Shown: positions 1 through 54,871, counted from the stretch's first letter. The stretch: 64,000 nt of DNA from an uncultured Clostridia bacterium (GCA_947646415.1 CANSGN010000006.1:2431-66430); one strand, 5' to 3'. The notes: a model not told the origin generated them from the sequence alone. A program made the numbers and translations.

Positions 1-823
1 TGCCTTTTGTCCTATATAAGGAATAATTCGCTTCCGCACTATCCAAAACATTTAAAAGAGTTTTTGTACCTAAGTCAAAAGCGTCATACTTACCCCTTAT
101 CACTACTGTAGGTGGATAATCATTTTTAATAAATCCTAGCGGGCTAAAATCTTGCTTGCAAATCACTTGTTTGTCCTTAAGGTCTTTGTTTGTAAGGTCA
201 AAAAATGCTTTTACATAAGTCTTGCAAAAAGGTGCTTTTGCTTTTAGTATTTCATTTATACTATAAGCACCGTTAATAAGTACGGTACACCCAACTTTAA
301 ACTCATTAATATGCTGAAAATCGATACTATTTTGTCTGTACAAGCTTTTATCACATGTGATTGCTGCAATAAAACTTGCAAAATATGCTCCCGCAGATTC
401 CCCTGCTATCACTATTTTATCCGTATCCAAATTATATTGTTCCGCTCTATCAAGCACAAAATCTATAGCTTTGAAAATATCTTGTAATTGATTTGGAAAA
501 TGACTTTTTGGCGCAAGCTGATATCCTACATTTACTACGAAAAAACCTTGCCTTGCCATTGTACTGCAATATGTCCTGCGAAGCGCAGTTGTACCCGATA
601 TAAACCCTCCACCGTGAATATAAAACATTATTGGGAGTTTTGAGAAGTCCGTTGTAAGTGGATAAAAAATATCTATTTTTTGACTTTTATTATTACCGTA
701 TGCTACGCCATATTCCTTAGATAAACCTTTGCCATTAACAGGTGTAACTGCTTTTAACAACAACTCGGAAGCAGTCAACATTTTGCCTACCGCACAAGCG
801 TAATAATAATCAAACTTTTTCAT
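1..823 (-). CDS. alpha/beta hydrolase, HSL-type esterase/lipase (C-terminal end runs off the window)
   Basis: Not in ORF track (truncated). My own translation from ATG 823-821 (GGAGGGTGG directly upstream) stays open to nt 1: MKKFDYYY...PIMFYIHGGGF (HGGG oxyanion motif)...KIVIAGESAGAYF (GxSxG nucleophile elbow). Confidence 0.8.
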   Translation of the reverse strand, partial: MKKFDYYYACAVGKMLTASELLLKAVTPVNGKGLSKEYGVAYGNNKSQKIDIFYPLTTDFSKLPIMFYIHGGGFISGTTALRRTYCSTMARQGFFVVNVGYQLAPKSHFPNQLQDIFKAIDFVLDRAEQYNLDTDKIVIAGESAGAYFASFIAAITCDKSLYRQNSIDFQHINEFKVGCTVLINGAYSINEILKAKAPFCKTYVKAFFDLTNKDLKDKQVICKQDFSPLGFIKNDYPPTVVIRGKYDAFDLGTKTLLNVLDSAEANYSLYRTKG

Positions 824-987
824 CCACCCTCCAAAATAATTATATATTTAATATAACTATTAATAGTTTACCACTTTTTTGACAAAACTGCAATATTTTT
901 TTTAATATTAGTTAATTATATAAATAGCATTAAGCATTTAACGATTTATTTACCTTTAAAATTTAAAAAATGTTATTATGATTATAA

Positions 988-1018
988 CACAAAAAGTCGG
1001 CTGCCCGACTTTTTGTGT
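988..1018 (-). terminator. hairpin terminator downstream of dockerin protein gene 1
   Basis: ACACAAAAAGTCGG-GCAG-CCGACTTTTTGTGT inverted repeat 20 nt after the stop codon, T-rich on both sides. A homologous hairpin follows paralog 2 (4231-4258). Confidence 0.6.
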
Positions 1019-1037
1019 TTTTTATTTTTACATATTA

Positions 1038-3698
1038 TTAAAAGAATAAGTCCATTGCAAATAATTTATCCACAACATTTCTTACTATTTCCGCATCTGC
1101 ACTTGTCACATTGCCTTTATTTATTACCATACTTGCCAGCTTCTTTTCCACACTTAAATTTTCATATAACGCGCTATCACTTGCTATTTGTCTTAAATAC
1201 GATACATCGCTTGCGCTTATCCTACCATCTCCGTTTACGTCGCCTAGTACGGATAAAGTTATTCTTTCAGTTTCTCCGTCTTTGCTGTACTCTATATACC
1301 AACCTGTTCCTACTGCTAGCTCTTTTCCATTATTCAACAACTCCGCATTTACGCTTGCATTTCCTTTGTCGTAGATTATTGCGCCTTTGCTGTTGTAGAT
1401 TTGTATTTGTGTTTTGTCATATACCAAGTTGCTTATAAACGTGTTTACGCTTGTATTTGGGCTTATATTTCCCATATAGTAGTTTGCTTTTCCTTCTACT
1501 ACATTTACATTGCTGTCATTATCCCCGTGTATCAAGCCTTTGTCTTTATAACTTACTCTCTTATCTCCCTCTAGGATTAAGTAATCGTATTTAGACTCTG
1601 CTGCTGGTCTTATTACATTTGCCTCGCTTATTGTAAGTTTTCCTCCATTTAAATAATTGACTGTTACATTGTAGTTACTGTTACCGCTAAACACTTTGCT
1701 TACGTCAAATGGTTTTATGCTTATTGCATACTCTCCTACATTTACGGCACTATCCGTTGTCACTCCGTCCTTTGTAAACTGTGGCACTATTTTGCTGTAG
1801 TCTATATTAAATACATTAGTTAATGGTTTTCCATTATCTTGACCTAACAAATTTGCAGACAAACTATACCAATCAATTAATTGAACTTCTTTTCCGTTAT
1901 AAGCGCTATTACTGCTTTTTGTACTTGCATTTACAGTAAGATTAGCAGGTGTTATTTTATAAGTTGTGCTTTTTGTCAATGGATTAATTTTGTAATTACC
2001 ATTGTTCAAGCTTCTTGCTTCGGCATAATATCCTGTACCGACATTTGTTTCGCTCCCAAAAACATTTACATTGCAACTATCTTCCCCAATCAACTGTCCT
2101 GCTTTTATTTTAGCTTTAGGGCTTTGCGACACACCGTTGTAAACCAAATTTGTTTCCCATTCCAAATCAATCTGCTTTGGCAAGACAATAAATGTAAATG
2201 CTGTGTTTTTATATGCTCTTGTAGAAACAAAGGCATAAACACCTGCATCTGTTACTTGATAACTTGGTTGAGCGGGATTTGAAAATTTAAATATATTACC
2301 CTCACTTGCAGAGATAGTGAACGGCTCGCCTGTGTATGTAACCGTCATTACTCTATTTGTAGTAGTTTTATCGTTGTATTTCCAAGTTAATGTTTTTAAA
2401 CTGCTTGTAGCATTTACCAACTCTGCCTCATCGCCGTTTTTTACTACCGAATAACTTTCATTATCCGAAAAGAAAAAACTTGCGGGACTTAAAGTACTGT
2501 TATGCACGGAAAAATCTGCGGTAAAAATTCTTGGTGACTCTAAGCTTATACCAACATTTGTAATGTGCTTGGCAATTAAATTAGCTGCAGAGATATAACT
2601 TGTTGCGACTTGCAAGGTATTTGTTGAGCATAAATACAGATTATTTTCCTTATTATCACAAAGATTTCCGTAAATTTGAGTACCTAAACCTATTTTAATA
2701 TTACATCCCGAACTTATATAAGCACCTGCTCCCGCAGCATTGACAGTTGATGTGCTTGAAGCAAGAGTTTCTGCCGAATTATTGGTAATAATCACGTTTC
2801 TCAAATCAACAGTCGAAAGTGAGTATGAAAAAATCCCCGCACCTAAAACAGATGAATTGTTTGCAATTACTCCGCCTCTCACTACCACAGTACTTTCAAT
2901 GCCTGAGCATATACCTGCACCATGATTTGTACTTGTATTACCAAAAATAAGTCCATCATAAAAGTTTATATAACCATTTCTCATAGCAGTTAAGCCTGCT
3001 GCATCCACGCCTTTATTATTGCAAATAATCCCCGAATAAAAGTTCATAACTCCGCCATCGGAAACCCTTATTCCTGCAGCAAAATATCCATCCACGCTAT
3101 TATTCCCGCCTTTAATTTTACCAAAAGGCAAATTGTCAACATTTGTTTGAGTCAATCTATTTTCTGCAAGTAGTTTATATACCTCGTTGGAATCATAAGT
3201 AGAGTCCATAATATTTAAAAATCCCTCTACTTTCATACAATACCCGTAATCAGCACCTGTGGTATCAAACAAATTTCTATCAATATTGTGGCCATTTAAA
3301 TCAATAGTAATATTTGTGCCGGCAATTACACGAATTTTTCCTTCATCAAAGCCGACACCTGTACCAAACTCAGTAACATAAACATTATCTGACTTTGCAG
3401 CAACCCAATCCGATTCCATAGTAATTATTACTGACCTTTTATTGTTGTATGAATCTACAACAGCCGTATTCCAAGTATCTGCCATTTGACTGCAATCGCC
3501 TTTTAATACGTAATCGGAATTTGTTGCCATCAGTGAGCTTTGCTCATTAACTTCAAGCACTTCTGCAGTCCCGTTGTGGTTTATCATGTTGTCATTGCAA
3601 CTTTCATTGTAAATTATCGTAGCACAGCTTACCGCTAATAGAAGGGAAATTACTAGTACAAAAAATACTATCCCAACTTTTTTAATAATCTTTGCCAT
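1038..3698 (-). CDS. secreted/surface adhesin-like protein: N-terminal signal/anchor helix, parallel beta-helix (PMP/pectin-lyase-like) repeats, MBG-type repeat region, C-terminal dockerin-type module
   Basis: 886-aa ORF. Hydrophobic N-terminus MAKIIKKVGIVFFVLVISLLLAV. Recurrent G-x-G-I turns (HGAGICSG, LGAGIFSY, AAGAGAYISSG). YNGVSQSP..NVGTGYY..NYKI..YKITPANLTV pattern. C-terminal LGDVNGDGRISASDVSYLRQIAS...NKGNVTSADAEIVRNVVDKL (two dockerin Ca-loop/helix segments). GGAGG RBS 7 nt before ATG 3698. Confidence 0.85.
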   Translation of the reverse strand: MAKIIKKVGIVFFVLVISLLLAVSCATIIYNESCNDNMINHNGTAEVLEVNEQSSLMATNSDYVLKGDCSQMADTWNTAVVDSYNNKRSVIITMESDWVAAKSDNVYVTEFGTGVGFDEGKIRVIAGTNITIDLNGHNIDRNLFDTTGADYGYCMKVEGFLNIMDSTYDSNEVYKLLAENRLTQTNVDNLPFGKIKGGNNSVDGYFAAGIRVSDGGVMNFYSGIICNNKGVDAAGLTAMRNGYINFYDGLIFGNTSTNHGAGICSGIESTVVVRGGVIANNSSVLGAGIFSYSLSTVDLRNVIITNNSAETLASSTSTVNAAGAGAYISSGCNIKIGLGTQIYGNLCDNKENNLYLCSTNTLQVATSYISAANLIAKHITNVGISLESPRIFTADFSVHNSTLSPASFFFSDNESYSVVKNGDEAELVNATSSLKTLTWKYNDKTTTNRVMTVTYTGEPFTISASEGNIFKFSNPAQPSYQVTDAGVYAFVSTRAYKNTAFTFIVLPKQIDLEWETNLVYNGVSQSPKAKIKAGQLIGEDSCNVNVFGSETNVGTGYYAEARSLNNGNYKINPLTKSTTYKITPANLTVNASTKSSNSAYNGKEVQLIDWYSLSANLLGQDNGKPLTNVFNIDYSKIVPQFTKDGVTTDSAVNVGEYAISIKPFDVSKVFSGNSNYNVTVNYLNGGKLTISEANVIRPAAESKYDYLILEGDKRVSYKDKGLIHGDNDSNVNVVEGKANYYMGNISPNTSVNTFISNLVYDKTQIQIYNSKGAIIYDKGNASVNAELLNNGKELAVGTGWYIEYSKDGETERITLSVLGDVNGDGRISASDVSYLRQIASDSALYENLSVEKKLASMVINKGNVTSADAEIVRNVVDKLFAMDLFF

Positions 3699-3720
3699 AA
3701 TAAAACCTCCGTTTTTACCT

Positions 3721-3747
3721 TACATAGATTAAGTATATCTATGTACA
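3721..3747. repeat. lox-like core site L1 (TACATAGAT|TAAGTAT|ATCTATGTA+CA) in the 5' UTR region of the 1038-3698 gene
   Basis: 9-bp inverted arms around a 7-bp asymmetric spacer. 3730-3747 is the exact reverse complement of 3869-3886. Confidence 0.7.
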
Positions 3748-3826
3748 AAATCGTGGATTTTTTAAGTTTGAATATATAATTTTTGTATGCTTAAAGTAAA
3801 GAGTTTACAAAACCTTTATTATAACG

Positions 3827-3856
3827 TTGACATTATCTTACATTTTAGTTTAAAAT
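3827..3856 (+). promoter_or_regulatory. sigma-A type promoter facing away from the dockerin gene (TTGACA-18-TAAAAT)
   Basis: TTGACA 3827-3832, TAAAAT 3851-3856. Lies entirely between sites L1 and R1. Identical copy at 6648-6677. Confidence 0.6.
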
Positions 3857-3868
3857 ATACATATAATA

Positions 3869-3895
3869 TGTACATAGATATACTTATTCCATGTA
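3869..3895. repeat. lox-like core site R1 (TG+TACATAGAT|ATACTTA|TTCCATGTA)
   Basis: Same arm sequence as L1. The 7-bp spacer ATACTTA is the reverse complement of the L1 spacer TAAGTAT. 25/27 match to the reverse complement of L1. Confidence 0.7.
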
Positions 3896-4006
3896 CCCAA
3901 ACTTTACATTAATGGCAAATTTTTAACCCAGATAGTCCCGATTTTTGATAGGATTATTGCAGTGAACGCCACTTTTTGCCTACTTTAAACTTTACACAAA
4001 AAGTAA

Positions 4007-4050
4007 CACCCCGAAACTAAAATGTTTCGGGGTGTATTTTTTATTTTTTT
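4007..4050. terminator. intrinsic terminator (T-rich on both sides, so bidirectional)
   Basis: 11-bp GC-rich stem CACCCCGAAAC/GTTTCGGGGTG. Plus strand is followed by T-run; minus strand is followed by TACTTTTTGTG. Confidence 0.7.
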
Positions 4051-4230
4051 GCATAGCATATACGAGTTTAAATAAGAAATTATTTGGCTGAAATCACATT
4101 GTATTATACGAAATAAAACAATATCGAGTTAAAAGCAATCCTTATATATCGTTTTAAAGTACAATAAAAAATTTTTATTGACGCAATAGCAAATTACTTA
4201 TAAATATAGATTTATTTTTTAATTATAAAA

Positions 4231-4258
4231 CAAAAAGTCGGTTACCCGACCTTTTGTG
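4231..4258 (-). terminator. terminator of dockerin protein gene 2
   Basis: Minus strand ACAAAAGGTCGG-GTAA-CCGACTTTTTGTTTTATAATT, 23 nt after the stop. Confidence 0.7.
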
Positions 4259-4280
4259 TTTCGTATTATTCATATTTTTA

Positions 4281-6518
4281 TTAAAAGAATAAGTTTATTG
4301 TAAGCAATTTATCAATTACATTCCTTACAATTTCCGCATCTGCTGTTGTTACGTTGCCTTTATTTACAACTGCGCATGCAAGCTTTTTTTCTATATCCAA
4401 ACTCTCGTATAATGCTTTATCGCTTGCTATTTGTCTTAAGTAGGAGACATCACTTGCACTTATCCTGCCGTCGCCGTTTACATCGCCTAGTACGGATAAA
4501 TAAACTGTTTCAACTTTGTTTGTGATAGCGTTGTTATGTTTGATATACCAGCCTGTACAAATCGGCATGTTTATTCCGTCGTCTAATAATGCTTGGTCAA
4601 TATTCATTGCACTTCCGCTATCATATAATATTGTATCCTTATTATTAAATAGTCCCATATTATTTTTATCAATTCCCAAACTTGCCAAGTGACTTACAAA
4701 ATCAATTATTGAAGTGTTTGGATTAATATTACCTATTACATAAACCGGCTGACCGTTTACTATATTTAAGTTAGCATCATTATAACCATGGAATTTATCA
4801 TTATCGCTATAATTCTTACGGCAACCATCCTCTAAGTATATAAAGTCATATATTTTGCCTTGGTCTATTTGATAGTCAAACATTACCTCGTCATTTTTCA
4901 ATTTCGCTACATACTTGCTATTTTTATTATAAAACAAAGTCTTAGGGTCATTGTTTTCGTTTCCGTAAATTGTATATCCTAAAGTAAATGGTCTAAAAAT
5001 TTCGTTATCCTCGTTCATTTCTAAACACATACCTTTGCCACTTTCGCCTAATGACAACTCACCATTAACGTAAATACGTTTATTGGATGCCAAATATATA
5101 TCGCTTACACCCGCACTTACTGTGTTACCGGTTATATCGTTACTTCCTTGCAAATAAAACTTAGCATTGTCCTCTGCACCTATTCCACCGCCATGTGCCA
5201 AACCATAGTTATTCCTTACTTTAACATTGCTTACATATAGCGTACTATTAAACAGTGCTTGTATACCTGCCCCGCCAAATGTAGTACCTCTTTCTCCCAT
5301 TGCTTTATTGTCTTCTATCGTACAATTATCCACATAAGTTATACTTTGTGCTGTAACATAAATTCCTCCGCAATGTCTTTTAGCAATATTACCGCTTACA
5401 TTTGTATCTTTGATTTTTACAAAGGAATCTTCTCCGCAATAAATACCTGCACCATAATCTGCCTGGTTATTTTGGATAGTGGAGTTGTTAATTTTTATAT
5501 TGGCATTACCTCTTATACAAATTCCGCCGTCCATACTATCTGAAATATTATTTGAAACAGTTATATTTTCAAAAGTGTTTACACCTCTTGTACATATACC
5601 AGCACCTTCGGTACTTGCCTTATTGTATATTAGTTCACAATTAACTACATTACAACTACTTTTATCGCTAATACCTATACCCGCACCCCATGACGCAGTA
5701 TTACCTGCAAATAGTGCATTGGATATACTATCATCAGTTTCTGTATATATAGCGCCACCATTATCAGTTACTTTATTAGCTGCAAAAATACCATCAACTA
5801 CATTAAACCTTGTTTTGTTTCCAGCAAAAATCGCTGCACCATCTCTTGCGCGGTTATTATATATCATACCGCCACAAATTTTCAAAAACCCTCTTGATAT
5901 CGTAGAGCCATTTGAGCCATCGCTGTATGAAACATTAAAGGCTCCGCCATGACCTGTTGTATTTGCACCGGTAATCTTTCCGCAAGGTACTTGCTTTAAT
6001 TCATTTAATATTTGCGTTTCGGTTTTTCCGCTTGCATTTGCATAAATTGACTTAACTTGCGATTTTATGCTTTCTTTATTTTTATCATATTCGCTGTCCA
6101 TAATGTAAAGCATACCTTTTACGGAAAACAAACTGCTTGTTAAAGTTGATGCGGCAGTAAGTGTATGACCTTTCAAATCTATAATTATGGTAGTGCCATA
6201 CATAGAAGTTATAGATTCTTTTACCGTCCAATCTTGTCCCAATTCCAATTTAACAATTAGACGTTGATAAGCAGACATTTGCGATGCTTGCGATAGTAGC
6301 CTTTTCATAGTCTCGTCATCGCCTTGCCAATCTAAAGTGTTATCTGCCGTAACATCGGGAACTTCCGAAGTAGTCATCACTTCATCATTTTGATTGCTTA
6401 AATTTACGCGGTCTTCAATTTGAGTATTGTTTGCAATTAATACGCTGCCCATTATAACCAGAAAGGAAATTACTAACGCAAAAAATATTTTTCCCACGTA
6501 TCGTGTAAACTTTGCCAT
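4281..6518 (-). CDS. secreted/surface protein, paralog of 1038-3698: signal/anchor helix, parallel beta-helix repeats, C-terminal dockerin-type module
   Basis: Start moved to MAKFTRYVGKIFFALVISFLV (ATG 6518, GGAGG 7 nt upstream) rather than the ORF-track 6575. Many GGAIY/GAGI/GGGI turns (NGGAIYTE, WGAGIGIS, GAGICTR, YGAGIYCG, HCGGIYVT, GGAGIQAL, HGGGIGAE). C-terminal LGDVNGDGRISASDVSYLRQIASD...NKGNVTTADAEIVRNVIDKL nearly identical to paralog 1. Confidence 0.85.
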   Translation of the reverse strand: MAKFTRYVGKIFFALVISFLVIMGSVLIANNTQIEDRVNLSNQNDEVMTTSEVPDVTADNTLDWQGDDETMKRLLSQASQMSAYQRLIVKLELGQDWTVKESITSMYGTTIIIDLKGHTLTAASTLTSSLFSVKGMLYIMDSEYDKNKESIKSQVKSIYANASGKTETQILNELKQVPCGKITGANTTGHGGAFNVSYSDGSNGSTISRGFLKICGGMIYNNRARDGAAIFAGNKTRFNVVDGIFAANKVTDNGGAIYTETDDSISNALFAGNTASWGAGIGISDKSSCNVVNCELIYNKASTEGAGICTRGVNTFENITVSNNISDSMDGGICIRGNANIKINNSTIQNNQADYGAGIYCGEDSFVKIKDTNVSGNIAKRHCGGIYVTAQSITYVDNCTIEDNKAMGERGTTFGGAGIQALFNSTLYVSNVKVRNNYGLAHGGGIGAEDNAKFYLQGSNDITGNTVSAGVSDIYLASNKRIYVNGELSLGESGKGMCLEMNEDNEIFRPFTLGYTIYGNENNDPKTLFYNKNSKYVAKLKNDEVMFDYQIDQGKIYDFIYLEDGCRKNYSDNDKFHGYNDANLNIVNGQPVYVIGNINPNTSIIDFVSHLASLGIDKNNMGLFNNKDTILYDSGSAMNIDQALLDDGINMPICTGWYIKHNNAITNKVETVYLSVLGDVNGDGRISASDVSYLRQIASDKALYESLDIEKKLACAVVNKGNVTTADAEIVRNVIDKLLTINLFF

Positions 6519-6541
6519 AATAAAACCTCCGTTTTTTACCT

Positions 6542-6568
6542 TACATAGAATAAGTATATCTATGTACA
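6542..6568. repeat. lox-like core site L2 (TACATAGAA|TAAGTAT|ATCTATGTA+CA)
   Basis: Copy of L1 at an offset of 2821 nt, with one arm substitution. Confidence 0.7.
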
Positions 6569-6647
6569 AAATCACGGTTTTTTTGAGTTTGAATATATAA
6601 TTTTTGTATGCTTAAAGTAAAGAGTTTACAAAACCTTTATTATAACG

Positions 6648-6677
6648 TTGACATTATCTTACATTTTAGTTTAAAAT
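6648..6677 (+). promoter_or_regulatory. second copy of the outward-facing TTGACA-18-TAAAAT promoter
   Basis: Identical to 3827-3856. Located between L2 and R2. Confidence 0.6.
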
Positions 6678-6689
6678 ATACATATAATA

Positions 6690-6716
6690 TGTACATAGAT
6701 ATACTTATTCCATGTA
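6690..6716. repeat. lox-like core site R2 (TG+TACATAGAT|ATACTTA|TTCCATGTA)
   Basis: Identical to R1. Spacer inverted relative to L2. Confidence 0.7.
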
Positions 6717-6826
6717 CCCAAACTTTACATTAAAGGCAAATTTTTACCCCTAATAGTCCCGATTTTTGATAGGATTATTGCAGTGAACAGCACTTTTGCC
6801 TACTTTAAACTTTACACAAAAAGTAA

Positions 6827-6862
6827 CACCCCGAAACTAAAATGTTTGGGGGTGTATTTTTT
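6827..6862. terminator. second copy of the GC-stem terminator
   Basis: CACCCCGAAAC-TAAAAT-GTTTGGGGGTG (one stem mismatch versus copy 1) followed by TATTTTTTATG. Confidence 0.6.
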
Positions 6863-6991
6863 ATGTTCATATAATTGATTTTATAAAAATTTCAGACAAA
6901 TTTTGTCTTGTTTTAAAAAAATATTATTAGCCTTATGTATAGTTACATAAAAAATAAAGCTGTAAATAATAATATATAATTTGTTTATAAA

Positions 6992-7954
6992 TTAAGCCAA
7001 AGCGTAAATATCGGGTACTACGTTCATTATCAATGCCATTAATGGCAAGGTAACAACGCTTAAAATTGTACCTAGTAAAACTAAGTTTGCAGCTGTCTTT
7101 TGCCCCTTGCCAAGCATTTCGGCAAAATTTAATGTTATGCTTGCAACAGGTGCTGCTGCCAATATAAATAGCGATTGTCTAATGTAAAAATCTATAGGGA
7201 TAAACCAAATTAAAAGCAAACCAAGCATTGGCATTACAATTTGCTTTACTCCTACAATAGCGTATTGAAAAGGCGAACAAAACATTTCCTTTAATGTTAT
7301 TGTAGCAAGCCTCATACCTAAAATTATCATACATAAAGGAGTTGTCATCTTTCCTAGTAATTCCACACAAGTAAAAATTTCTTTAGGTAACGTTACATTG
7401 CAAATAAACAACGGCAAGCCTATAACAAGACCAAGCATTGCAGGATTGATAAATGCCTTTTTAGCGCTTATAAACTTTTTATCCCCGCTTATTAAATATG
7501 ATGCAAATGTCCAACCTATCAAATTAAGTCCCAATAAAAACATAACGGATAGTACCACTGCATTATTCCTAACAGCCTCCGGCATAATGGCTTGTAATAG
7601 GGGAACACCCATAAACCCACAGTTACCAAAAGCGGTAGCGACTGTTGCGACACGGTATTTTATATCTTTATCGTAATGCTTTTTCAAACAAAAATGAGCA
7701 ATCAAAATAACACCTAGCTGCAAAACACCTGCAAGCACAAAAGCGACAATCATCTTCCAAAAGAAATCCAATGTATAAGTCGCATTTAAAAACGATGTAA
7801 TAGTTAGCATAGGTTGACAAACATACATTAACAAAACCGAAAAGGCGGATATGCTTTCCGCACGAATTAGCTTGCATCTGACTGTCAGGTAACCCGGAAC
7901 AGCGTAGGCAAGCATTGTTGCGACGGCTATTGCCGTAGTGATTAAAACTTGCAT
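6992..7954 (-). CDS. AEC (auxin efflux carrier / malate permease-like) family transporter
   Basis: 320 aa, about 10 hydrophobic helices. N-terminus MQVLITTAIAVATMLAYAVPGYL and the overall layout are typical of AEC permeases. GGGAGG RBS. Confidence 0.7.
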   Translation of the reverse strand: MQVLITTAIAVATMLAYAVPGYLTVRCKLIRAESISAFSVLLMYVCQPMLTITSFLNATYTLDFFWKMIVAFVLAGVLQLGVILIAHFCLKKHYDKDIKYRVATVATAFGNCGFMGVPLLQAIMPEAVRNNAVVLSVMFLLGLNLIGWTFASYLISGDKKFISAKKAFINPAMLGLVIGLPLFICNVTLPKEIFTCVELLGKMTTPLCMIILGMRLATITLKEMFCSPFQYAIVGVKQIVMPMLGLLLIWFIPIDFYIRQSLFILAAAPVASITLNFAEMLGKGQKTAANLVLLGTILSVVTLPLMALIMNVVPDIYALA

Positions 7955-8045
7955 ATTCCACCTCCCACCGCAATATTAAACTTTTTTAGCGAATTTTGCA
8001 AGCGTTTTGATACTAAATTTTATTATTTTTCTACAAAATTTGCTA

Positions 8046-8084
8046 AAATAAAAAAACAGGACAGCCTTTATGCAAACTATCCCG
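8046..8084 (-). terminator. terminator after the thiD-thiC-HAD operon
   Basis: Minus strand GGATAG-loop-CTGTCC hairpin followed by TGTTTTTTTATTTT. Confidence 0.5.
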
Positions 8085-8110
8085 TTTAATTTAACATATT
8101 TAGCACTTTA

Positions 8111-8761
8111 TTATATTAGTTCGCCAAAATCATCTATAAACATATCCGCAACGCTTTTAATTTGGTTTTGGTCGCCTTTTGACTCCTCGTCAAACACACC
8201 TACTACATAAAATCCGCCTTTTTTCGCTCCGTTAACGCCTTGCAAAATATCCTCAAATACCACACAATCGCGTGGCTCAACTTGAGTATGACTTATTGCC
8301 TTTAAGTAAATATCGGGAAAGCCTTTTCCTCTTTTTACTTGTTCGCTGTTTACAACTGTGGCAAAATATTGCAAAATACCATTTCGTTGCAATGCAGGCA
8401 ACGCCAATTCCTTACTTAAAGAAGTTGCAACCGACATTCCTATATTTTGCGACTTTAGCCTTTCCAAAAACTCTTGCACATGTGGTTTTAACATAATTTT
8501 ATTGCAATAGGCTTGCTTTGCCATATCAAGCCATTCGGAAATAAGCTCTTGCGGGCTGTCCTTCAAATTAAATCTTTTAATGGAATACAATGCCGTATCC
8601 ATAATGCTCATGTGGTTTATACACTTCATATAATCGTCTGGAACTTGTACACTGCGTTTTGAAAGATAGTCATAATCGATTTGCTTCCATAGCCACATAG
8701 AGTCAAACATAGTGCCGTCCAAATCAAAAACAGCGTACTTTATATTGCTTGGTAAATTCAT
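8111..8761 (-). CDS. HAD-superfamily hydrolase (beta-phosphoglucomutase-like subfamily IA)
   Basis: Motif [11 protein letters not shown] at the N-terminus; later [13 protein letters not shown] and [15 protein letters not shown] motifs. Start overlaps the thiC stop by 4 nt. Confidence 0.8.
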
Positions 8762-10074
8762 TTATTTTCCTCTTTAAGTTTAACTTTTTGTCCGTCCAAA
8801 ATCATATTTGTTGTTCGTATAGCACACATTTTGCCGCACATTGAACAAGTATGTCTGTTTTTAGGCGGCACACTTTCGTAATATGCCCTCGCCTTATCCG
8901 GGTCGATTGCATATTTAAACATTTCCTCATAATCAACTTTGTGACGGGCATCCGACATTTTGTTGTCAACCTCGCGGGCATAAGGTATGCATTTTGCAAT
9001 ATCCGCTGCATGTGCTGCGATTTTAGTTGCAATCAATCCCTCGCGAACATCGTCTGCGTTAGGCAATCTCAAATGCTCTGCAGGCGTTACATAACACAAA
9101 AAGTCAGCGCCGTTGGTTGCTGCTATAGCCCCGCCAATAGCAGAAGTTATATGGTCATAACCGGGTGCAACATCGGTAACTAGCGGTCCCAACACATAAA
9201 AAGGTGCATTGTGGCACAACTTTTTTTCCATTTGCATATTACTTGCAATTTCATTTAATGCCATGTGTCCCGGTCCCTCTATCATTACCTGCACGTCTTT
9301 TTCCCATGCCCTTTTTGTAAGATAGCCAAGTTCGATAAGCTCTCCTATTTGACCGCTATCAGTACTATCGTCAATACAACCCGGTCTCATAGCATCGCCC
9401 AAGCTTATTGTCACATCGTATTCCCTTAAAATGTCCAGCACTTCGTCGTAGTATTCGAAAAAAGGATTTTCCCTACCTGTCATTTGCATCCAAGCAAACA
9501 AAAGCGAGCCACCCCTAGATACTATGTTCATACGTCTACCCTCACGCATAAAACCTTCCACTACTCTGCGGTTAATACCTGCGTGGATTGTCACAAAGTC
9601 TACACCTTGATGTGCATGAGCCCTTACAACTTGCAAAAAATCTTGTGCGGTAATATCAAGCAAATCTTTTTCCAAATATCCGATAGCATCATACATAGGC
9701 ACTGTGCCTATCATTGCAGTGGACTTTTGTATAAGCTTTTCACGAAACACATTTGTCTTGCCACAGTTGGACAAATCCATAATGCCCTCCGCACCATACT
9801 TTAAAGCTATATCTACTTTTTGCATTTCCAAGTCATAATCGTAAAAGTCCCCCGACACACCAAGATTAACATTTACTTTGGTCCTAAGTCCGCTACCTAT
9901 CCCCTCGGGAGATAAACTTTTGTGATTGATATTGCAAGGTATTGCAATTTCCCCACAAGCAACCTTTTGCATAATAAACTGTGGAGATAATCTTTCTTTT
10001 TCCGCAACGACTTTCATCTCGGGTGTTATAATCCCCTTTTTAGCCGCTTGCATTTGTGTATAATATTCTCTCAT
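8758..10074 (-). CDS. thiC: phosphomethylpyrimidine synthase
   Basis: 438 aa. Conserved ThiC blocks ([38 protein letters not shown]) and C-terminal CSMCGKMC cluster. Confidence 0.95.
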
Positions 10075-12894: not shown

Positions 12895-13665
12895 TTAATC
12901 CTCCAAAAAACCTGTCAACGGACTTGATGCCTCTGCCTTGCTCTCAAGTACTCTTCCCAATCCTGCAAGATAAGCTTGTCTGCCTGCAATAACCGCGTTT
13001 TTAAAAGCTGCCGCCATTAAATCAACATTGCCTGCGGTAGCTATAGCTGTATTTGCCATAACCGCACTTACACCCATTTCCATTGCCTCTGCCGCCTCGG
13101 ATGGTCTGCCGATTCCCGCATCAACTATGATAGGCAAATCTATTTCGTCAAGCAAAATCTTTATAAAATCTTTTGTCCTTATACCCTTATTTGTACCAAT
13201 CGGGCTGCCAAGCGGCATTACCGCACTTGCTCCTGCAGAAACCAAAGCCCTTGCTGCATACAAATCGGGGTACATATACGGCATAACTATAAAGCCCTCA
13301 TTTGCCAATATCTCCGTCGCTTTTACCGTCTCGTTATTGTCGGGCAACAAATATTTGCTATCCCCTATTATTTCAAGCTTAACAAAATTTCCGCAACCTA
13401 CTTCCCTTGCAAGCCTTGCAATTCGCACTGCTTCCGCAGCAGTCCTTGCACCCGATGTGTTTGGCAAAAGTGTAATATTGTTTGGAATATAATCCAAAAT
13501 ATTATTTCCACCACCTATATTTGCACGACGAAGAGCAACAGTTACCATTTCGACCTCAGCGTTCTCGATAACCGATTTCATAAACTTAAGTGAAAATTTA
13601 CCCGACCCCAAAATAAATCGGGAATCAAACTCCTTACCGCCAATTCTTAGTTTGTCTTGTTGCAT
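12895..13665 (-). CDS. thiG: thiazole synthase
   Basis: 256 aa. [27 protein letters not shown] and [11 protein letters not shown] blocks. Confidence 0.95.
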
Positions 13666-53023: not shown

Positions 53024-53476
53024 ATGATTAAACAAACTGTTTCAATAAAAAACTTTACCGAAAATTTTACAGATTTATTTTTAAACACTAATATTACAAA
53101 ACATCAATTTGCAAAAGAAGTTGGTATCGACCATTATCAAATAACCTGCTATCTACAAGGGACTATCCCTATTACTAGAAGTATTGTTAAAATTTGCGAT
53201 TACTTTAATTGTTCCATTGACTATATGTTAGGACTAAGCGATTGCTTTGCTTATCCCAATATGCAAAAAGGCTTTAAGAAAGATTGTTTTTACCCTGAGT
53301 ATCAAAGGTTGTTAAAACTTAATAATAAAACCCATTATACCTTAGCGAAAGAAAAAATCGTAACTTCAACTAAACAAAGTTTGTGGAAAAAAGGCGGTCT
53401 GCCTAAATTTGAAGTTATTATCGCAATCGCATACGAGCTTGGTGGGTCTATCGACAAAATGTTGGGACGAATTTAA
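53024..53476 (+). CDS. dual-HTH (two XRE/Cro-like domains) transcriptional regulator, array member A
   Basis: 150 aa. Domain 1: FAKEVGIDHYQITCYLQGTIPITRSIVKICDYFNCSIDYMLGLSD. Domain 2: YTLAKEKIVTSTKQSLWKKGGLPKFEVIIAIAYELGGSIDKMLGRI. Confidence 0.75.
   Translation: MIKQTVSIKNFTENFTDLFLNTNITKHQFAKEVGIDHYQITCYLQGTIPITRSIVKICDYFNCSIDYMLGLSDCFAYPNMQKGFKKDCFYPEYQRLLKLNNKTHYTLAKEKIVTSTKQSLWKKGGLPKFEVIIAIAYELGGSIDKMLGRI
53054..53463 (+). repeat. 410-bp exact direct repeat, copy 1 (partner 53997-54406, period 943 nt)
   Basis: Base-by-base comparison of the two stretches shows no mismatch. Identity breaks at 53053/53996 and at 53464/54407. Confidence 0.9.
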
Positions 53477-53493
53477 AAACATAAGGAAATTAT

Positions 53494-53937
53494 ATGATTA
53501 ACGATACTAATAAATTTACAGAAATTTTTACAGATTTACTAAGCGAAACACAACTATCAAATTTTCAGTTTTCAAAACTAATAGGGGTTGACCACAAAAG
53601 AATAAAGGCATATATATCAGGTGGCATTCCTACAACTGAAACAATAGCTAAGATTTGCGACTATTTTAAGTGTTCAATGGATTACCTTACAGGTCTTAGC
53701 AATGAGTTTAACTATAAAAACATGAAAAACGGATATTCTACATCATTTTTTATGACTGAATATCAAAAGCTACTTACTATTAATAATACAAATCATTTTG
53801 CGCTATCCAAAAAGGGAATCGTCAATGAATCAAGTTTAAGTTGGTGGAAGAAAGGTCATTTACCACAATTTGAAGTAATTTTTAATATCGCGTATGAACT
53901 TGGTGGCTCAATAGATAAATTGCTTGGGCGTATATAA
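53494..53937 (+). CDS. dual-HTH regulator, array member B
   Basis: 147 aa, same two-domain layout (..KICDYFKCSMDYLTGLSNE.. / ..WWKKGHLPQFEVIFNIAYELGGSIDKLLGRI). AAGGAAAT RBS. Confidence 0.75.
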   Translation: MINDTNKFTEIFTDLLSETQLSNFQFSKLIGVDHKRIKAYISGGIPTTETIAKICDYFKCSMDYLTGLSNEFNYKNMKNGYSTSFFMTEYQKLLTINNTNHFALSKKGIVNESSLSWWKKGHLPQFEVIFNIAYELGGSIDKLLGRI

Positions 53938-53966
53938 AATAATATCCATTATTACGAGGATAACTA

Positions 53967-54419
53967 ATGATAAACTCAATAAAATTTAAAGACTTATTTA
54001 CCGAAAATTTTACAGATTTATTTTTAAACACTAATATTACAAAACATCAATTTGCAAAAGAAGTTGGTATCGACCATTATCAAATAACCTGCTATCTACA
54101 AGGGACTATCCCTATTACTAGAAGTATTGTTAAAATTTGCGATTACTTTAATTGTTCCATTGACTATATGTTAGGACTAAGCGATTGCTTTGCTTATCCC
54201 AATATGCAAAAAGGCTTTAAGAAAGATTGTTTTTACCCTGAGTATCAAAGGTTGTTAAAACTTAATAATAAAACCCATTATACCTTAGCGAAAGAAAAAA
54301 TCGTAACTTCAACTAAACAAAGTTTGTGGAAAAAAGGCGGTCTGCCTAAATTTGAAGTTATTATCGCAATCGCATACGAGCTTGGTGGGTCTATCGACAA
54401 AATGTTAGGTCGAATTTAA
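53967..54419 (+). CDS. dual-HTH regulator, array member A' (identical to A except for the first ~10 codons)
   Basis: 150 aa. Protein identical to A from FTENFTDLFLNT to the end. GAGGATAAC RBS. Confidence 0.75.
   Translation: MINSIKFKDLFTENFTDLFLNTNITKHQFAKEVGIDHYQITCYLQGTIPITRSIVKICDYFNCSIDYMLGLSDCFAYPNMQKGFKKDCFYPEYQRLLKLNNKTHYTLAKEKIVTSTKQSLWKKGGLPKFEVIIAIAYELGGSIDKMLGRI
53997..54406 (+). repeat. 410-bp exact direct repeat, copy 2
   Basis: See 53054-53463. Confidence 0.9.
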
Positions 54420-54442
54420 AAATTATTTAATAGGGATATATA

Positions 54443-54871
54443 ATGAATTTTACGGAAATTTTTACTGATTTGTTTTTAGAAACTGCACTAAACAAAACAA
54501 CATTTGCTAATCAACTAGGCATTGGTCATTCCTCAATTCAAAAATATATGAATGGAGTTATTCCGTCTCCAAAAACTGTCGCGTTGATTTGCGATTATTT
54601 TAATTGTTCAATGGACTACATAACAGGGTTGAGTGATGAATTTAATTACAAAAATTCTAAAGGCGGATTGGACAAGCAATGTTTTATAACGGAATACCAA
54701 AAGCTTTTAGAGATAAATAAAACTAACCACTATACTTTATCAAAAAGCTATTTGGTTAATGAATCGAGTTTGAGTTGGTGGAAAAAAGGCGGTCTGCCTA
54801 AATTTGAAGTGATTTTTAATATCGCGTATGAACTTGGCGGGTCAATAGATAAATTGCTTGGGCGTATTTAA
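54443..54871 (+). CDS. dual-HTH regulator, array member B'
   Basis: 142 aa, about two-thirds identical to B by eye. AGGGATAT RBS. Confidence 0.75.
   Translation: MNFTEIFTDLFLETALNKTTFANQLGIGHSSIQKYMNGVIPSPKTVALICDYFNCSMDYITGLSDEFNYKNSKGGLDKQCFITEYQKLLEINKTNHYTLSKSYLVNESSLSWWKKGGLPKFEVIFNIAYELGGSIDKLLGRI

What the first reader, a model, noticed from the sequence alone, without database searches (positions are those of the whole stretch)
6542..6716. Second, near-identical copy of the switch upstream of the paralogous gene; four compatible sites within 3 kb allow shufflon-like rearrangements
- L2 (TACATAGAA|TAAGTAT|ATCTATGTA), the TTGACA-18-TAAAAT promoter (6648-6677) and R2 (identical to R1) repeat the 3721-3895 element at a constant offset of 2821 nt.
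- The promoter again faces away from its gene (4281-6518).
- The whole ~355-bp module is duplicated with only a handful of substitutions and one 1-nt indel. It runs from the signal-peptide codons through the terminator (about 3690-4050 versus about 6510-6865). This is far better conserved than the coding bodies.
- Inference on rearrangements: L1/L2 and R1/R2 are direct pairs, predicting deletion or circle formation of the 2.8-kb gene-2 cassette. L1/R2 and R1/L2 are inverted pairs, predicting inversion of a whole gene.
- One recombinase could therefore produce several expression states, not just two independent ON/OFF switches.
Basis: partly seen in the sequence, partly recalled or inferred. 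Interest (0 to 1): 0.65.

Follow-up and report, generated by a model that had tools for sequence, protein, structure and literature searches.

The report
Second copy of an invertible-promoter switch
The flagged element is one of two copies here, and of at least 11 per related genome, of a probable flip-able promoter cassette upstream of secreted surface-type protein genes in mouse-gut Christensenellaceae; it is a new example of a known kind of switch, flipping was never directly seen, and nothing supports multi-site shuffling.

Summary
Window 6510-6867 repeats 3690-4047 at about 96% identity, while the two downstream proteins share only 28-48%.

Each copy has the same layout:
- a terminator and a conserved ~110-nt block;
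- site R, then 125 nt holding a TTGACA-18-TAAAAT promoter, then site L;
- a ribosome-binding site and the gene.

L and R are 9-7-9 sites (TACATAGAA|TAAGTAT|ATCTATGTA) with asymmetric spacers in inverted orientation.

The pair is not special. The same module occurs at least 11 times in one related mouse-gut Christensenellaceae MAG, and in other MAGs and metagenome contigs. Site spacing is always 150-151 nt.

The strongest evidence for recombination is comparative. The arms stay constant, while the 7-nt spacer differs between lineages. It always matches between the L and R of one module: TAAGTAT, TAAGCAT or TACATAT. A 309-aa tyrosine recombinase with conserved chromosomal context lies next to a module in relatives. 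None is encoded in this window.

Every one of the ~55 assembled copies has the promoter facing away from its gene, so inversion is inferred rather than seen. The shufflon-like idea is geometrically possible. However, the locus looks the same in the window and in contigs from three other assemblies, and each gene has its own promoter.

Verdict: a new member of a known kind, an inverton family.

The parts
1038..3698 (-). Gene 1: 886-aa secreted or anchored protein with an MAKIIKKVG... hydrophobic N-terminus and a C-terminal dockerin type I domain
   Evidence: ORF; Pfam Dockerin_1; paralogue of gene 2
3699..3720 (-). Gene 1 leader with GGAGG ribosome-binding site, conserved in the family
   Evidence: Sequence; alignment of 18 modules
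3721..3745 (.). Site L1, gene-proximal 9-7-9 site TACATAGAT|TAAGTAT|ATCTATGTA
3746..3870 (.). Putative invertible segment 1 (125 nt) holding the promoter at 3827-3856 (+), which points away from gene 1
   Evidence: 11 of 12 match; -35 and -10 conserved across module types while the spacer varies
3871..3895 (.). Site R1, TACATAGAT|ATACTTA|TTCCATGTA, with its spacer inverted relative to L1
3896..4005 (.). Conserved non-coding block with AAACTTTACA at 3899 and 3987 and CCCGATTTTTGATAGGATTATTGCAGTGAAC at 3937-3967. Probably protein-binding DNA
   Evidence: Conserved as sequence, with no RNA covariation; no Rfam family
4006..4042 (.). Bidirectional intrinsic terminator 1: 12-bp stem with T-tracts on both strands
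   Evidence: hairpin kept by compensatory changes in 26 of 28 distinct variants
4230..4257 (-). Terminator of gene 2
4281..6518 (-). Gene 2: 745-aa paralogue with a right-handed beta-helix and a C-terminal dockerin
   Evidence: Pfam Beta_helix, Dockerin_1; identical protein on three other contigs
6519..6541 (-). Gene 2 leader with GGAGG ribosome-binding site
6542..6566 (.). Site L2, TACATAGAA|TAAGTAT|ATCTATGTA
6567..6691 (.). Putative invertible segment 2 (125 nt) holding the promoter at 6648-6677 (+), which points away from gene 2
   Evidence: Simulated inversion places the -10 element 64 nt upstream of the ATG
6692..6716 (.). Site R2, identical to R1
6717..6825 (.). Conserved non-coding block, copy 2 (AAACTTTACA at 6720 and 6807; 31-nt block at 6758-6788)
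6826..6862 (.). Terminator 2. It has one stem mismatch and folds at -19.0 kcal/mol. The pattern scan missed it
   Evidence: (row L138-2776, the copy-2 module on a contig identical to window 3873-9000)

Best explanation
Window 6542-6716 is one copy of a family of promoter-inversion switches (invertons).

Proposed mechanism (inferred):
- A tyrosine recombinase encoded elsewhere in the genome binds the 9-bp arms of L and R.
- It exchanges strands across the identical, asymmetric 7-bp spacers. Because the spacers are inverted relative to each other, this flips the 125-nt segment.

The state seen in every assembly I read as OFF. The strong sigma-70-type promoter reads outward through R and a ~110-nt conserved block into an intrinsic terminator. 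That same hairpin also blocks read-in from upstream genes.

After inversion the promoter would read through L and a ~57-nt leader into the MAK... gene. That gene encodes a secreted beta-helix protein with a dockerin.

Each paralogue has its own switch. The family (at least 11 modules per related genome) would then give a population in which each cell displays few or none of a repertoire of surface proteins, with OFF as the majority state at every locus.

Shown: the anatomy, the copy family, promoter and terminator conservation, spacer covariation, and a recombinase next to a module in relatives.

Inferred: that inversion happens, which enzyme does it, and the OFF bias.
For: - Site anatomy is 9-7-9 with an asymmetric spacer, inverted between L and R.
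- In 44 modules with both sites readable, the arms are constant. The spacer is TAAGTAT/TAAGTAT (33 modules), TAAGCAT/TAAGCAT (4) or TACATAT/TACATAT (7), and always matches within a module.
- A 59%-identical recombinase in another element is followed directly by a pair of sites whose arms differ at 6 of 18 positions but whose spacers match in inverted orientation (TATCTCA/TGAGATA). These flank an outward-facing promoter upstream of a lipoprotein gene.
- The -35 and -10 hexamers are conserved across three diverged promoter cassettes, while the sequence between them varies.
- The terminator stem is kept by compensatory changes.
- Start-to-start site spacing is 150 or 151 nt in all modules.
- A 309-aa protein with Phage_int_SAM_3 and Phage_integrase domains lies 2 kb from a module in MGBC162486. 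Its 89% and 77% homologues keep the context PI-PLC, recombinase, Metallophos, module, MAK gene. Its closest solved relative is the Int protein of 6EN0/6EMY.
- The region between R and the terminator shows no RNA structure covariation and no Rfam match.
- Published read-level surveys find that most confirmed invertons have about 2% of reads in the minority orientation. Consensus assemblies showing one orientation are therefore expected (PMC11602134).
Against: - No flipped copy was seen. A junction pattern specific to the ON state found 0 hits in metagenome contigs, whereas the orientation-neutral pattern found 28 contigs, all OFF.
- All 38 promoter-proximal junctions face the terminator side. 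So do the modules in loci L141-L151.
- No recombinase is encoded in the 64-kb window.
- The link between the candidate recombinase and these sites rests on proximity and co-occurrence only.
- A weak leftward promoter-like match (9 of 12) exists in the present orientation at 3800-3771 and 6621-6592. Some expression in the 'OFF' state is therefore possible.
Confidence: 0.75

Rival explanations
1. Fixed regulatory module with no inversion. L and R are palindromic operators for a dimeric regulator that loops the 150-bp segment. The strong promoter makes a short ~170-nt RNA ending at the terminator. The gene is transcribed from a weak leftward promoter inside the segment.
For: - All ~55 assembled modules are in one orientation.
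- The constant 150-151-nt spacing would also suit looping.
- A weak leftward promoter-like match lies at 6621-6592.
- The terminator downstream of the strong promoter is conserved.
Against: - The operator model does not predict spacers that change between lineages yet stay exactly matched, in inverted orientation, within each module while the arms stay constant.
- The putative RNA body has no conserved structure and no Rfam hit.
- In the Christensenella-type modules the T-tract after the hairpin is poor on the promoter's strand and good on the gene's strand.
- The leftward promoter-like hexamers are not conserved between cassette types.
Confidence: 0.12
2. Shufflon-like multi-site system. The recombinase regularly recombines sites of different modules (L1/R2, R1/L2, L1/L2, R1/R2). 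This inverts or excises the 2.8-kb gene-2 cassette and creates extra expression states.
For: - All four sites share one spacer, so they are chemically compatible.
- Strain comparisons show mosaics with breakpoints in or near modules. L133 combines the terminator-side flank of L010 with the promoter cassette and gene of L037, with a crossover interval of ~55 nt that contains R.
- L133 and L135 have near-identical genes (identical leader and first ~40 codons) but different promoter cassettes.
Against: - The locus has the same architecture in the window and in contigs from three other assemblies.
- No hybrid junction was found in metagenome contigs.
- At least 11 modules with identical sites are spread over one genome. 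Free inter-module recombination would scramble or delete chromosome segments.
- The sites lie outside coding sequence and every gene has its own promoter, so no new product or state would arise.
- Another mosaic (L128 against L065) breaks at the outer edge of the whole unit rather than at the sites.
- The mosaics could come from homologous recombination between repeats or from assembly chimeras.
Confidence: 0.08
3. Decayed or locked switches. The modules descend from invertons but no longer invert in this lineage, for example because the recombinase was lost, so the genes are permanently silent or use other promoters.
For: - All copies are in one orientation.
- No recombinase is in the window.
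- The recombinase was found on contigs of related genomes, not shown for this strain.
Against: - Sites, spacing, promoter and terminator are under visible purifying selection across several species, and L/R spacers remain matched.
- The large genes remain intact as open reading frames.
Confidence: 0.05

Closest known systems
Mycoplasma penetrans mpl (P35) lipoprotein family with one invertible promoter per gene (Horino et al. 2003, as summarised in PMC2268961)
   Same: - A multigene family of surface proteins spread over several chromosomal loci.
- Each gene is thought to be switched independently by inversion of its own short adjacent promoter segment.
- The proposed enzymes are tyrosine (Xer-like) recombinases encoded near some family members.
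   Different: - Unrelated host (Clostridia versus Mollicutes) and unrelated proteins (beta-helix with dockerin versus lipoproteins).
- Different site sequence.
- Here the module also carries a conserved terminator and a ~110-nt accessory block.
- Inversion has been shown for mpl and not here.
Bacteroides fragilis polysaccharide and surface-protein promoter invertons acting genome-wide (Mpi, Tsr recombinases)
   Same: One recombinase acting in trans on many dispersed promoter invertons that control surface structures in a gut commensal (described in PMC2268961; the rest from general knowledge).
   Different: - Mpi is a serine recombinase.
- The inverted repeats are simple repeats without a 9-7-9 arm/spacer layout.
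- Reference genomes show a mix of ON and OFF, whereas here all copies are OFF.
E. coli fimS switch (FimB/FimE tyrosine recombinases)
   Same: - Inversion of a short promoter segment by a tyrosine recombinase.
- Sequences outside the repeats and accessory proteins set directionality, which offers a possible role for the conserved block here (general knowledge).
   Different: - A single locus of 314 bp with 9-bp repeats.
- The recombinases are encoded next to the switch.
- No family of copies.
Shufflons and multiple-inversion systems (R64 Rci; Mycoplasma vsa, vsp, vpma)
   Same: Several recombination sites in both orientations within a few kb, served by one tyrosine recombinase.
   Different: In those systems inversion swaps coding segments or moves silent genes to a single expression site (PMC2268961). 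Here every gene has its own promoter, the sites are non-coding, and no alternative arrangement was found.

Membership tests
Invertible promoter (inverton) phase-variation switch | Short intergenic segment flanked by inverted repeats | tested here: met
   27-nt inverted repeats, 93-96% complementary, 121 nt apart. The same layout is seen in at least 44 other modules.
Invertible promoter (inverton) phase-variation switch | Promoter inside the segment that drives the adjacent gene in one orientation only | tested here: met
   TTGACA-18-TAAAAT scores 11 of 12, and its hexamers are conserved across cassette types. Simulated inversion gives a ~57-nt leader to the ATG. This is consensus-level evidence only, with no transcript data.
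Invertible promoter (inverton) phase-variation switch | Both orientations present in a population | tested here: inconclusive
   0 of ~55 consensus assemblies are flipped, and the ON-junction scan found 0 hits. Reads were not available, and consensus sequences cannot show minority states.
Invertible promoter (inverton) phase-variation switch | A site-specific recombinase that acts on the repeats | tested here: inconclusive
   None in the window. A candidate tyrosine recombinase lies next to a module in related genomes. Activity was not tested.
Tyrosine-recombinase core-type site (arms around a 6-8-bp overlap) | Two inverted ~9-13-bp binding arms around a 6-8-bp asymmetric overlap | tested here: met
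   TACATAGAA | TAAGTAT | ATCTATGTA, a 9-7-9 layout.
Tyrosine-recombinase core-type site (arms around a 6-8-bp overlap) | Overlap identical between partner sites while free to differ between systems | tested here: met
   Three spacer classes with constant arms, each matched between L and R. A fourth class occurs in a distant homologous system.
Tyrosine-recombinase core-type site (arms around a 6-8-bp overlap) | Cleavage and strand exchange at the overlap borders | not testable with these tools
   Needs biochemistry or recombinant junction sequences.
Shufflon or multiple-inversion system | Several sites in both orientations within one cluster | tested here: met
   L1, R1, L2 and R2 lie within 3 kb and have identical spacers.
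Shufflon or multiple-inversion system | Inversions swap coding segments or bring silent genes to a single expression site | tested here: not met
   The sites lie upstream of the start codons, and each gene has its own promoter module.
Shufflon or multiple-inversion system | Alternative arrangements of the cluster found among clones or strains | tested here: not met
   Same arrangement in the window and in L138-L140. No hybrid junction in metagenome contigs. Consensus level only.

The most novel reading that the evidence does not exclude
A single chromosomal tyrosine recombinase runs a genome-wide, strongly OFF-biased repertoire of at least 11 self-insulated promoter switches in gut Christensenellaceae. 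Each switch gates one dockerin-tagged beta-helix surface protein. The cell would then plug varying cargo into a common cohesin-type anchor, giving a phase-variable modular surface display. The fixed 150-bp geometry and the conserved external block would confine recombination to the two sites of one module, even though all sites in the genome are identical.
Probability: 0.25. Interest if true: 0.6.

Novelty: new member of a known kind. Interest (0 to 1): 0.4.

Why it matters
If the switches are active, a heritable, health-associated gut family (Christensenellaceae) varies a repertoire of secreted, dockerin-bearing proteins by DNA inversion. I found no paper linking this group, or dockerin proteins, to such variation.

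The module is unusually well defined. It has constant-length, matched-spacer core sites, a built-in insulating terminator and a conserved accessory block. That makes it a clean system for two questions:
- how a recombinase is confined to neighbouring sites when dozens of identical sites exist in the genome;
- how OFF bias is set.

For annotation, these 360-bp repeats also break assemblies of these genomes.

Tried and rejected
- **ON-junction scan.** Exact-pattern scan of metagenome contigs for the ON junction found 0 hits. The orientation-neutral control found 28 contigs, all OFF. The collection does hold the organism, but consensus contigs do not show minority states.
- **Contig ends as a sign of heterogeneity.** Several SPAdes and Logan contigs stop inside or just after the R site. 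The stops are compatible with ordinary k-mer repeat breaks: some metagenome contigs start exactly 55 nt before a distinguishing SNP, L162 ends 55 nt after one, and the Logan ends lie 31 nt after a possibly length-variable A-run. None lies exactly at the repeat boundary that inversion would give. Rejected as evidence.
- **Small-RNA reading of the promoter-to-terminator region.** RNAalifold found no conserved pairs apart from the R-site palindrome. There was no Rfam match above chance.
- **Recombinase in the window.** Pfam scans of 56 of the 71 ORFs of at least 90 aa, including all large ORFs outside the ribosomal-protein block, and tblastn with the candidate recombinase both found none.
- **Flank-combination analysis for inter-module rearrangements.** It gave a few mosaics. 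One breaks at the edge of the whole unit. Homologous recombination or chimeric assembly cannot be excluded, so these are kept only as hints.
- **Horino et al. 2003 (PMC141813).** The paper could not be read, so the mpl comparison rests on a secondary source.

Full report
**1. What is in the window**

The region 3690-4047 is repeated at 6510-6867. The repeat breaks down as follows:
- 265 nt at 96% identity, offset 2821;
- 74 nt at 97% and 77 nt at 81%, offset 2820.

There are therefore two single-base indels.

Read on the plus strand, each copy has this order:
- the start of a minus-strand gene (ATG at 3698 or 6518) with a GGAGG ribosome-binding site;
- site L (3721-3745 / 6542-6566);
- a 125-nt segment;
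- site R (3871-3895 / 6692-6716);
- a ~110-nt conserved block;
- a GC-rich hairpin with T-tracts on both sides (4006-4042 / 6826-6862).

L reads TACATAGA(T/A) | TAAGTAT | ATCTATGTA. R reads TACATAGAT | ATACTTA | TTCCATGTA. Each site is thus two 9-bp inverted arms around a 7-bp asymmetric spacer, and the spacers of L and R are in inverted orientation.

The 16-nt core occurs exactly four times in the 64 kb, which is more than in any shuffle.

The best promoter-like match in either intergenic region is TTGACA-18-TAAAAT at 3827-3856 and 6648-6677, on the plus strand (one equal-scoring match lies inside gene 2). It points away from the genes and towards the terminator.

The two genes encode paralogous proteins of 886 and 745 aa:
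- both have a hydrophobic N-terminus (MAK...);
- gene 2 has a right-handed beta-helix hit;
- both have a C-terminal dockerin type I domain;
- they share 28% identity over the N-terminal and beta-helix part and 48% over the last ~240 residues.

**2. The pair belongs to a large family**

I scanned one genome per species for the 16-nt core. Complete modules were found in these genomes:
- 11 separate 8-kb blocks of the mouse-gut MAG 'uncultured Christensenellaceae bacterium MGBC162486';
- four blocks (plus three partial modules) of 'Christensenella sp. MGBC121002';
- one block of MGBC100798.

A second pattern found 28 metagenome contigs. Protein look-ups added contigs identical or near-identical to the window.

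An alignment of 18 modules shows three diverged promoter cassettes. Conserved features are:
- the -35 hexamer (invariant TTGACA) and the -10 hexamer (TATAAT or TAAAAT);
- both sites;
- a TTTGTAAA motif inside the segment;
- AAACTTTACA next to R and next to the terminator;
- the block CCCGATTTTTGATAGGATTATTGCAGTGAAC.

The sequence between these features varies.

The start-to-start distance between L and R is 150 nt in every one of these modules, and 151 nt in two more distant lineages.

Most modules precede MAK-type genes. One precedes a DUF6273-dockerin gene. In two species one precedes a rarA/mgsA-ABC operon.

**3. Is it a recombination site or an operator?**

The decisive comparison came from more distant relatives, reached through the recombinase (see section 4):
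- In contigs carrying an 89%-identical recombinase, the neighbouring module has TACATAGAT | TAAGCAT | ATCTATGTA at both sites.
- In contigs with a 77%-identical recombinase, two different modules have TACATAGAA | TACATAT | ATCTATGTA at both sites.

Over 44 modules with both sites readable, the spacer pairs are TAAGTAT/TAAGTAT (33), TAAGCAT/TAAGCAT (4) and TACATAT/TACATAT (7). There is no mismatched pair.

So the arms are constant, the spacers are free to change between lineages, and the spacers are always matched in inverted orientation within a module. That is what established knowledge of tyrosine recombinases (lambda Int, Cre, Flp, Xer) predicts for core sites with a crossover region. It is not what a palindromic operator predicts.

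A further case points the same way. A 59%-identical recombinase sits in a relaxase-bearing element. It is followed at once by:
- a terminator;
- a site GTACATATAA|TATCTCA|TTCTATGTAC;
- 112 nt with an outward-facing TTGATT-17-TATGAT promoter (read by eye);
- a second site whose arms differ at 6 of 18 positions but whose spacer is the exact reverse complement (TGAGATA);
- a ribosome-binding site and a lipoprotein gene.

**4. The enzyme**

The window encodes no recombinase. Pfam scans of 56 of its 71 ORFs of at least 90 aa, including all large ORFs outside the ribosomal-protein block, found none, and tblastn with the candidate found nothing.

In MGBC162486, a 309-aa protein with Phage_int_SAM_3 and Phage_integrase domains lies 2 kb from a module.
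- By eye its sequence carries the expected IRLGE, HSLRH, LGH and RYAH motifs.
- Homologues at 74-96% identity keep a chromosomal, non-prophage context. For the 89% and 77% homologues this is PI-PLC, recombinase, Metallophos, module, large MAK-type gene.
- The closest solved relatives are the 'Int protein' chains 6EN0/6EMY/6EMZ, followed by XerA. From memory, these Int chains are the Tn1549 integrase.

That this enzyme acts on the sites is inferred from proximity and co-occurrence.

**5. Has inversion been seen? No.**

- In all 18 genome modules the promoter points away from the adjacent gene.
- All 38 promoter-proximal junctions across all loci face the terminator side.
- All 28 metagenome contigs are in the same state, as are the modules in the distant lineages.
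- A pattern specific to the flipped junction found nothing in the metagenome collection.

I also checked whether contig ends inside the modules betray heterogeneity. The ends are compatible with ordinary k-mer repeat breaks: some metagenome contigs start exactly 55 nt before a distinguishing SNP, L162 ends 55 nt after one, and the Logan ends lie 31 nt after a possibly length-variable A-run. None lies at the repeat boundary, so they are not evidence.

All of these are consensus sequences. A published read-level survey reports that most confirmed invertons have about 2% of reads in the minority orientation (PMC11602134). With at least 11 loci, and if only a few are ON per cell, every locus would be majority-OFF. 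The data therefore exclude unbiased 50/50 switching. They do not exclude an OFF-biased switch.

**6. The rest of the module**

The hairpin is kept through many compensatory changes. Examples are ACACCCCGAAAC/GTTTCGGGGTGT, GCGGTGTAAAAC/GTTTTACGCCGC, GCACCATAAAAC/GTTTTATGGTGC and ACACACTAAAAC/ATTTTAGTGTGT.

Its T-tract is consistently good on the gene's strand, and good on both strands in the window's type. I read it first as an insulator that keeps upstream transcription out of the silent gene, and second as the stop for the parked promoter.

The ~110 nt between R and the hairpin are conserved as sequence. They show no covarying pairs and match no Rfam family. Accessory-protein or directionality sites are the likeliest role, by analogy with fimS. 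This is inference.

Simulated inversion of segment 2 puts the -10 element 64 nt upstream of the ATG. The hybrid site and the conserved leader lie in between.

**7. The shufflon-like idea**

The arguments against are:
- The gene-2 cassette has the reference arrangement in the window and in contigs from three other assemblies.
- No hybrid junction exists in the metagenome collection.
- The same sites occur at least 11 times around a related genome, so unrestricted cross-recombination would be destructive.
- Cross-inversion would only place promoter 1 in front of gene 2, a state that local inversion already provides.

Strain comparisons do show mosaics:
- L133 joins the terminator-side flank of L010 to the promoter cassette and gene of L037. 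The crossover interval is ~55 nt and contains R.
- L133 and L135 have near-identical genes (identical leader and first ~40 codons) with different promoter cassettes.
- L128 and L065 carry the whole terminator-module-gene unit at different chromosomal places, with the break at the outer edge of the unit.

These mosaics fit occasional exchange over evolutionary time. It could be site-specific or homologous, and assembly chimeras are not excluded.

In one relative, two modules on the same contig carry different spacers: TAAATAT, and TAAGCAT at 12902/13053. That difference would insulate them from each other. The window's modules are not insulated in this way.

**8. Comparison with known systems, and verdict**

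In function this looks like the Mycoplasma penetrans mpl family, which has one invertible promoter per surface-protein gene, many loci, and Xer-like recombinases nearby (PMC2268961). It also resembles the genome-wide promoter invertons of Bacteroides. In site chemistry it looks like a lambda-Int/Xer-type core site.

It is not a shufflon. The defining feature of a shufflon is that inversion swaps coding segments or feeds a single expression site, and that feature is not met here.

I found no paper linking Christensenellaceae or dockerin proteins with invertons.

My verdict:
- The invertible-promoter reading is well supported by comparative anatomy, but is unproven at the level of reads.
- The multi-site rearrangement reading is not supported.
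- Novelty: a new member of a known kind.
- Interest: moderate.

Noticed in passing
window 53024-54871 (+): Four tandem paralogous genes of ~142-150 aa, each with a Cro/C1-type HTH domain (HTH_3/HTH_26).
   Followed up: no
window 3896-4005 and 6717-6825: Strongly conserved non-coding block outside the invertible segment. It holds AAACTTTACA twice (3899, 3987 / 6720, 6807) and CCCGATTTTTGATAGGATTATTGCAGTGAAC (3937 / 6758). A related TTTGTAAA motif lies inside the segment. The block is conserved as sequence, without RNA covariation. Its role is unknown; accessory or directionality sites are possible.
   Followed up: partly
L010 4343-4670; L024 5647-5972: In two species the same module sits upstream of a rarA/mgsA AAA+ ATPase gene followed by ABC-transporter genes, with no MAK-type leader. 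The module therefore acts as a portable cassette and is not tied to the dockerin family.
   Followed up: partly
L154 10912-11164 (also L155-L157): A 59%-identical tyrosine recombinase in a relaxase-bearing element is followed by a terminator, a site with spacer TATCTCA, 112 nt with an outward-facing promoter, a site with spacer TGAGATA, and a lipoprotein (Flg_new) gene. This is the same design in a distant system, and it is again in the 'OFF' state in four contigs.
   Followed up: partly
L141 positions 12-36 versus 12902-13077: Two modules on one contig carry different spacers (TAAATAT versus TAAGCAT), which would prevent cross-recombination between them. In L149 the R site at 13226 has TATATAT where the orthologous site in L147 and L151 has TACATAT; its partner lies off the contig.
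   Followed up: no
L133, L135, L010, L037, L128, L065: Strain-level mosaics around modules: the same gene with different promoter cassettes, the same terminator-side flank with different genes, and a whole module-plus-gene unit at different chromosomal places. Assembly chimeras are not excluded.
   Followed up: partly
L138-L140 ends; L113, L131 starts; L145, L146 ends: Assemblies of these genomes break inside the modules. For some contigs (L113, L131, L162) the break lies exactly one k-mer (55 nt) from a distinguishing SNP; for the others a repeat or A-run variant is the likeliest cause. The ~360-bp repeats fragment MAGs of this group.
   Followed up: yes
window 1-1331 versus L131 2007-3343: A related strain has the same left-flank esterase gene and dockerin-coding end at 92% identity, but a different, shorter family member (about 730 aa) in the place of gene 1. 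The cassette content at one locus therefore varies between strains.
   Followed up: no
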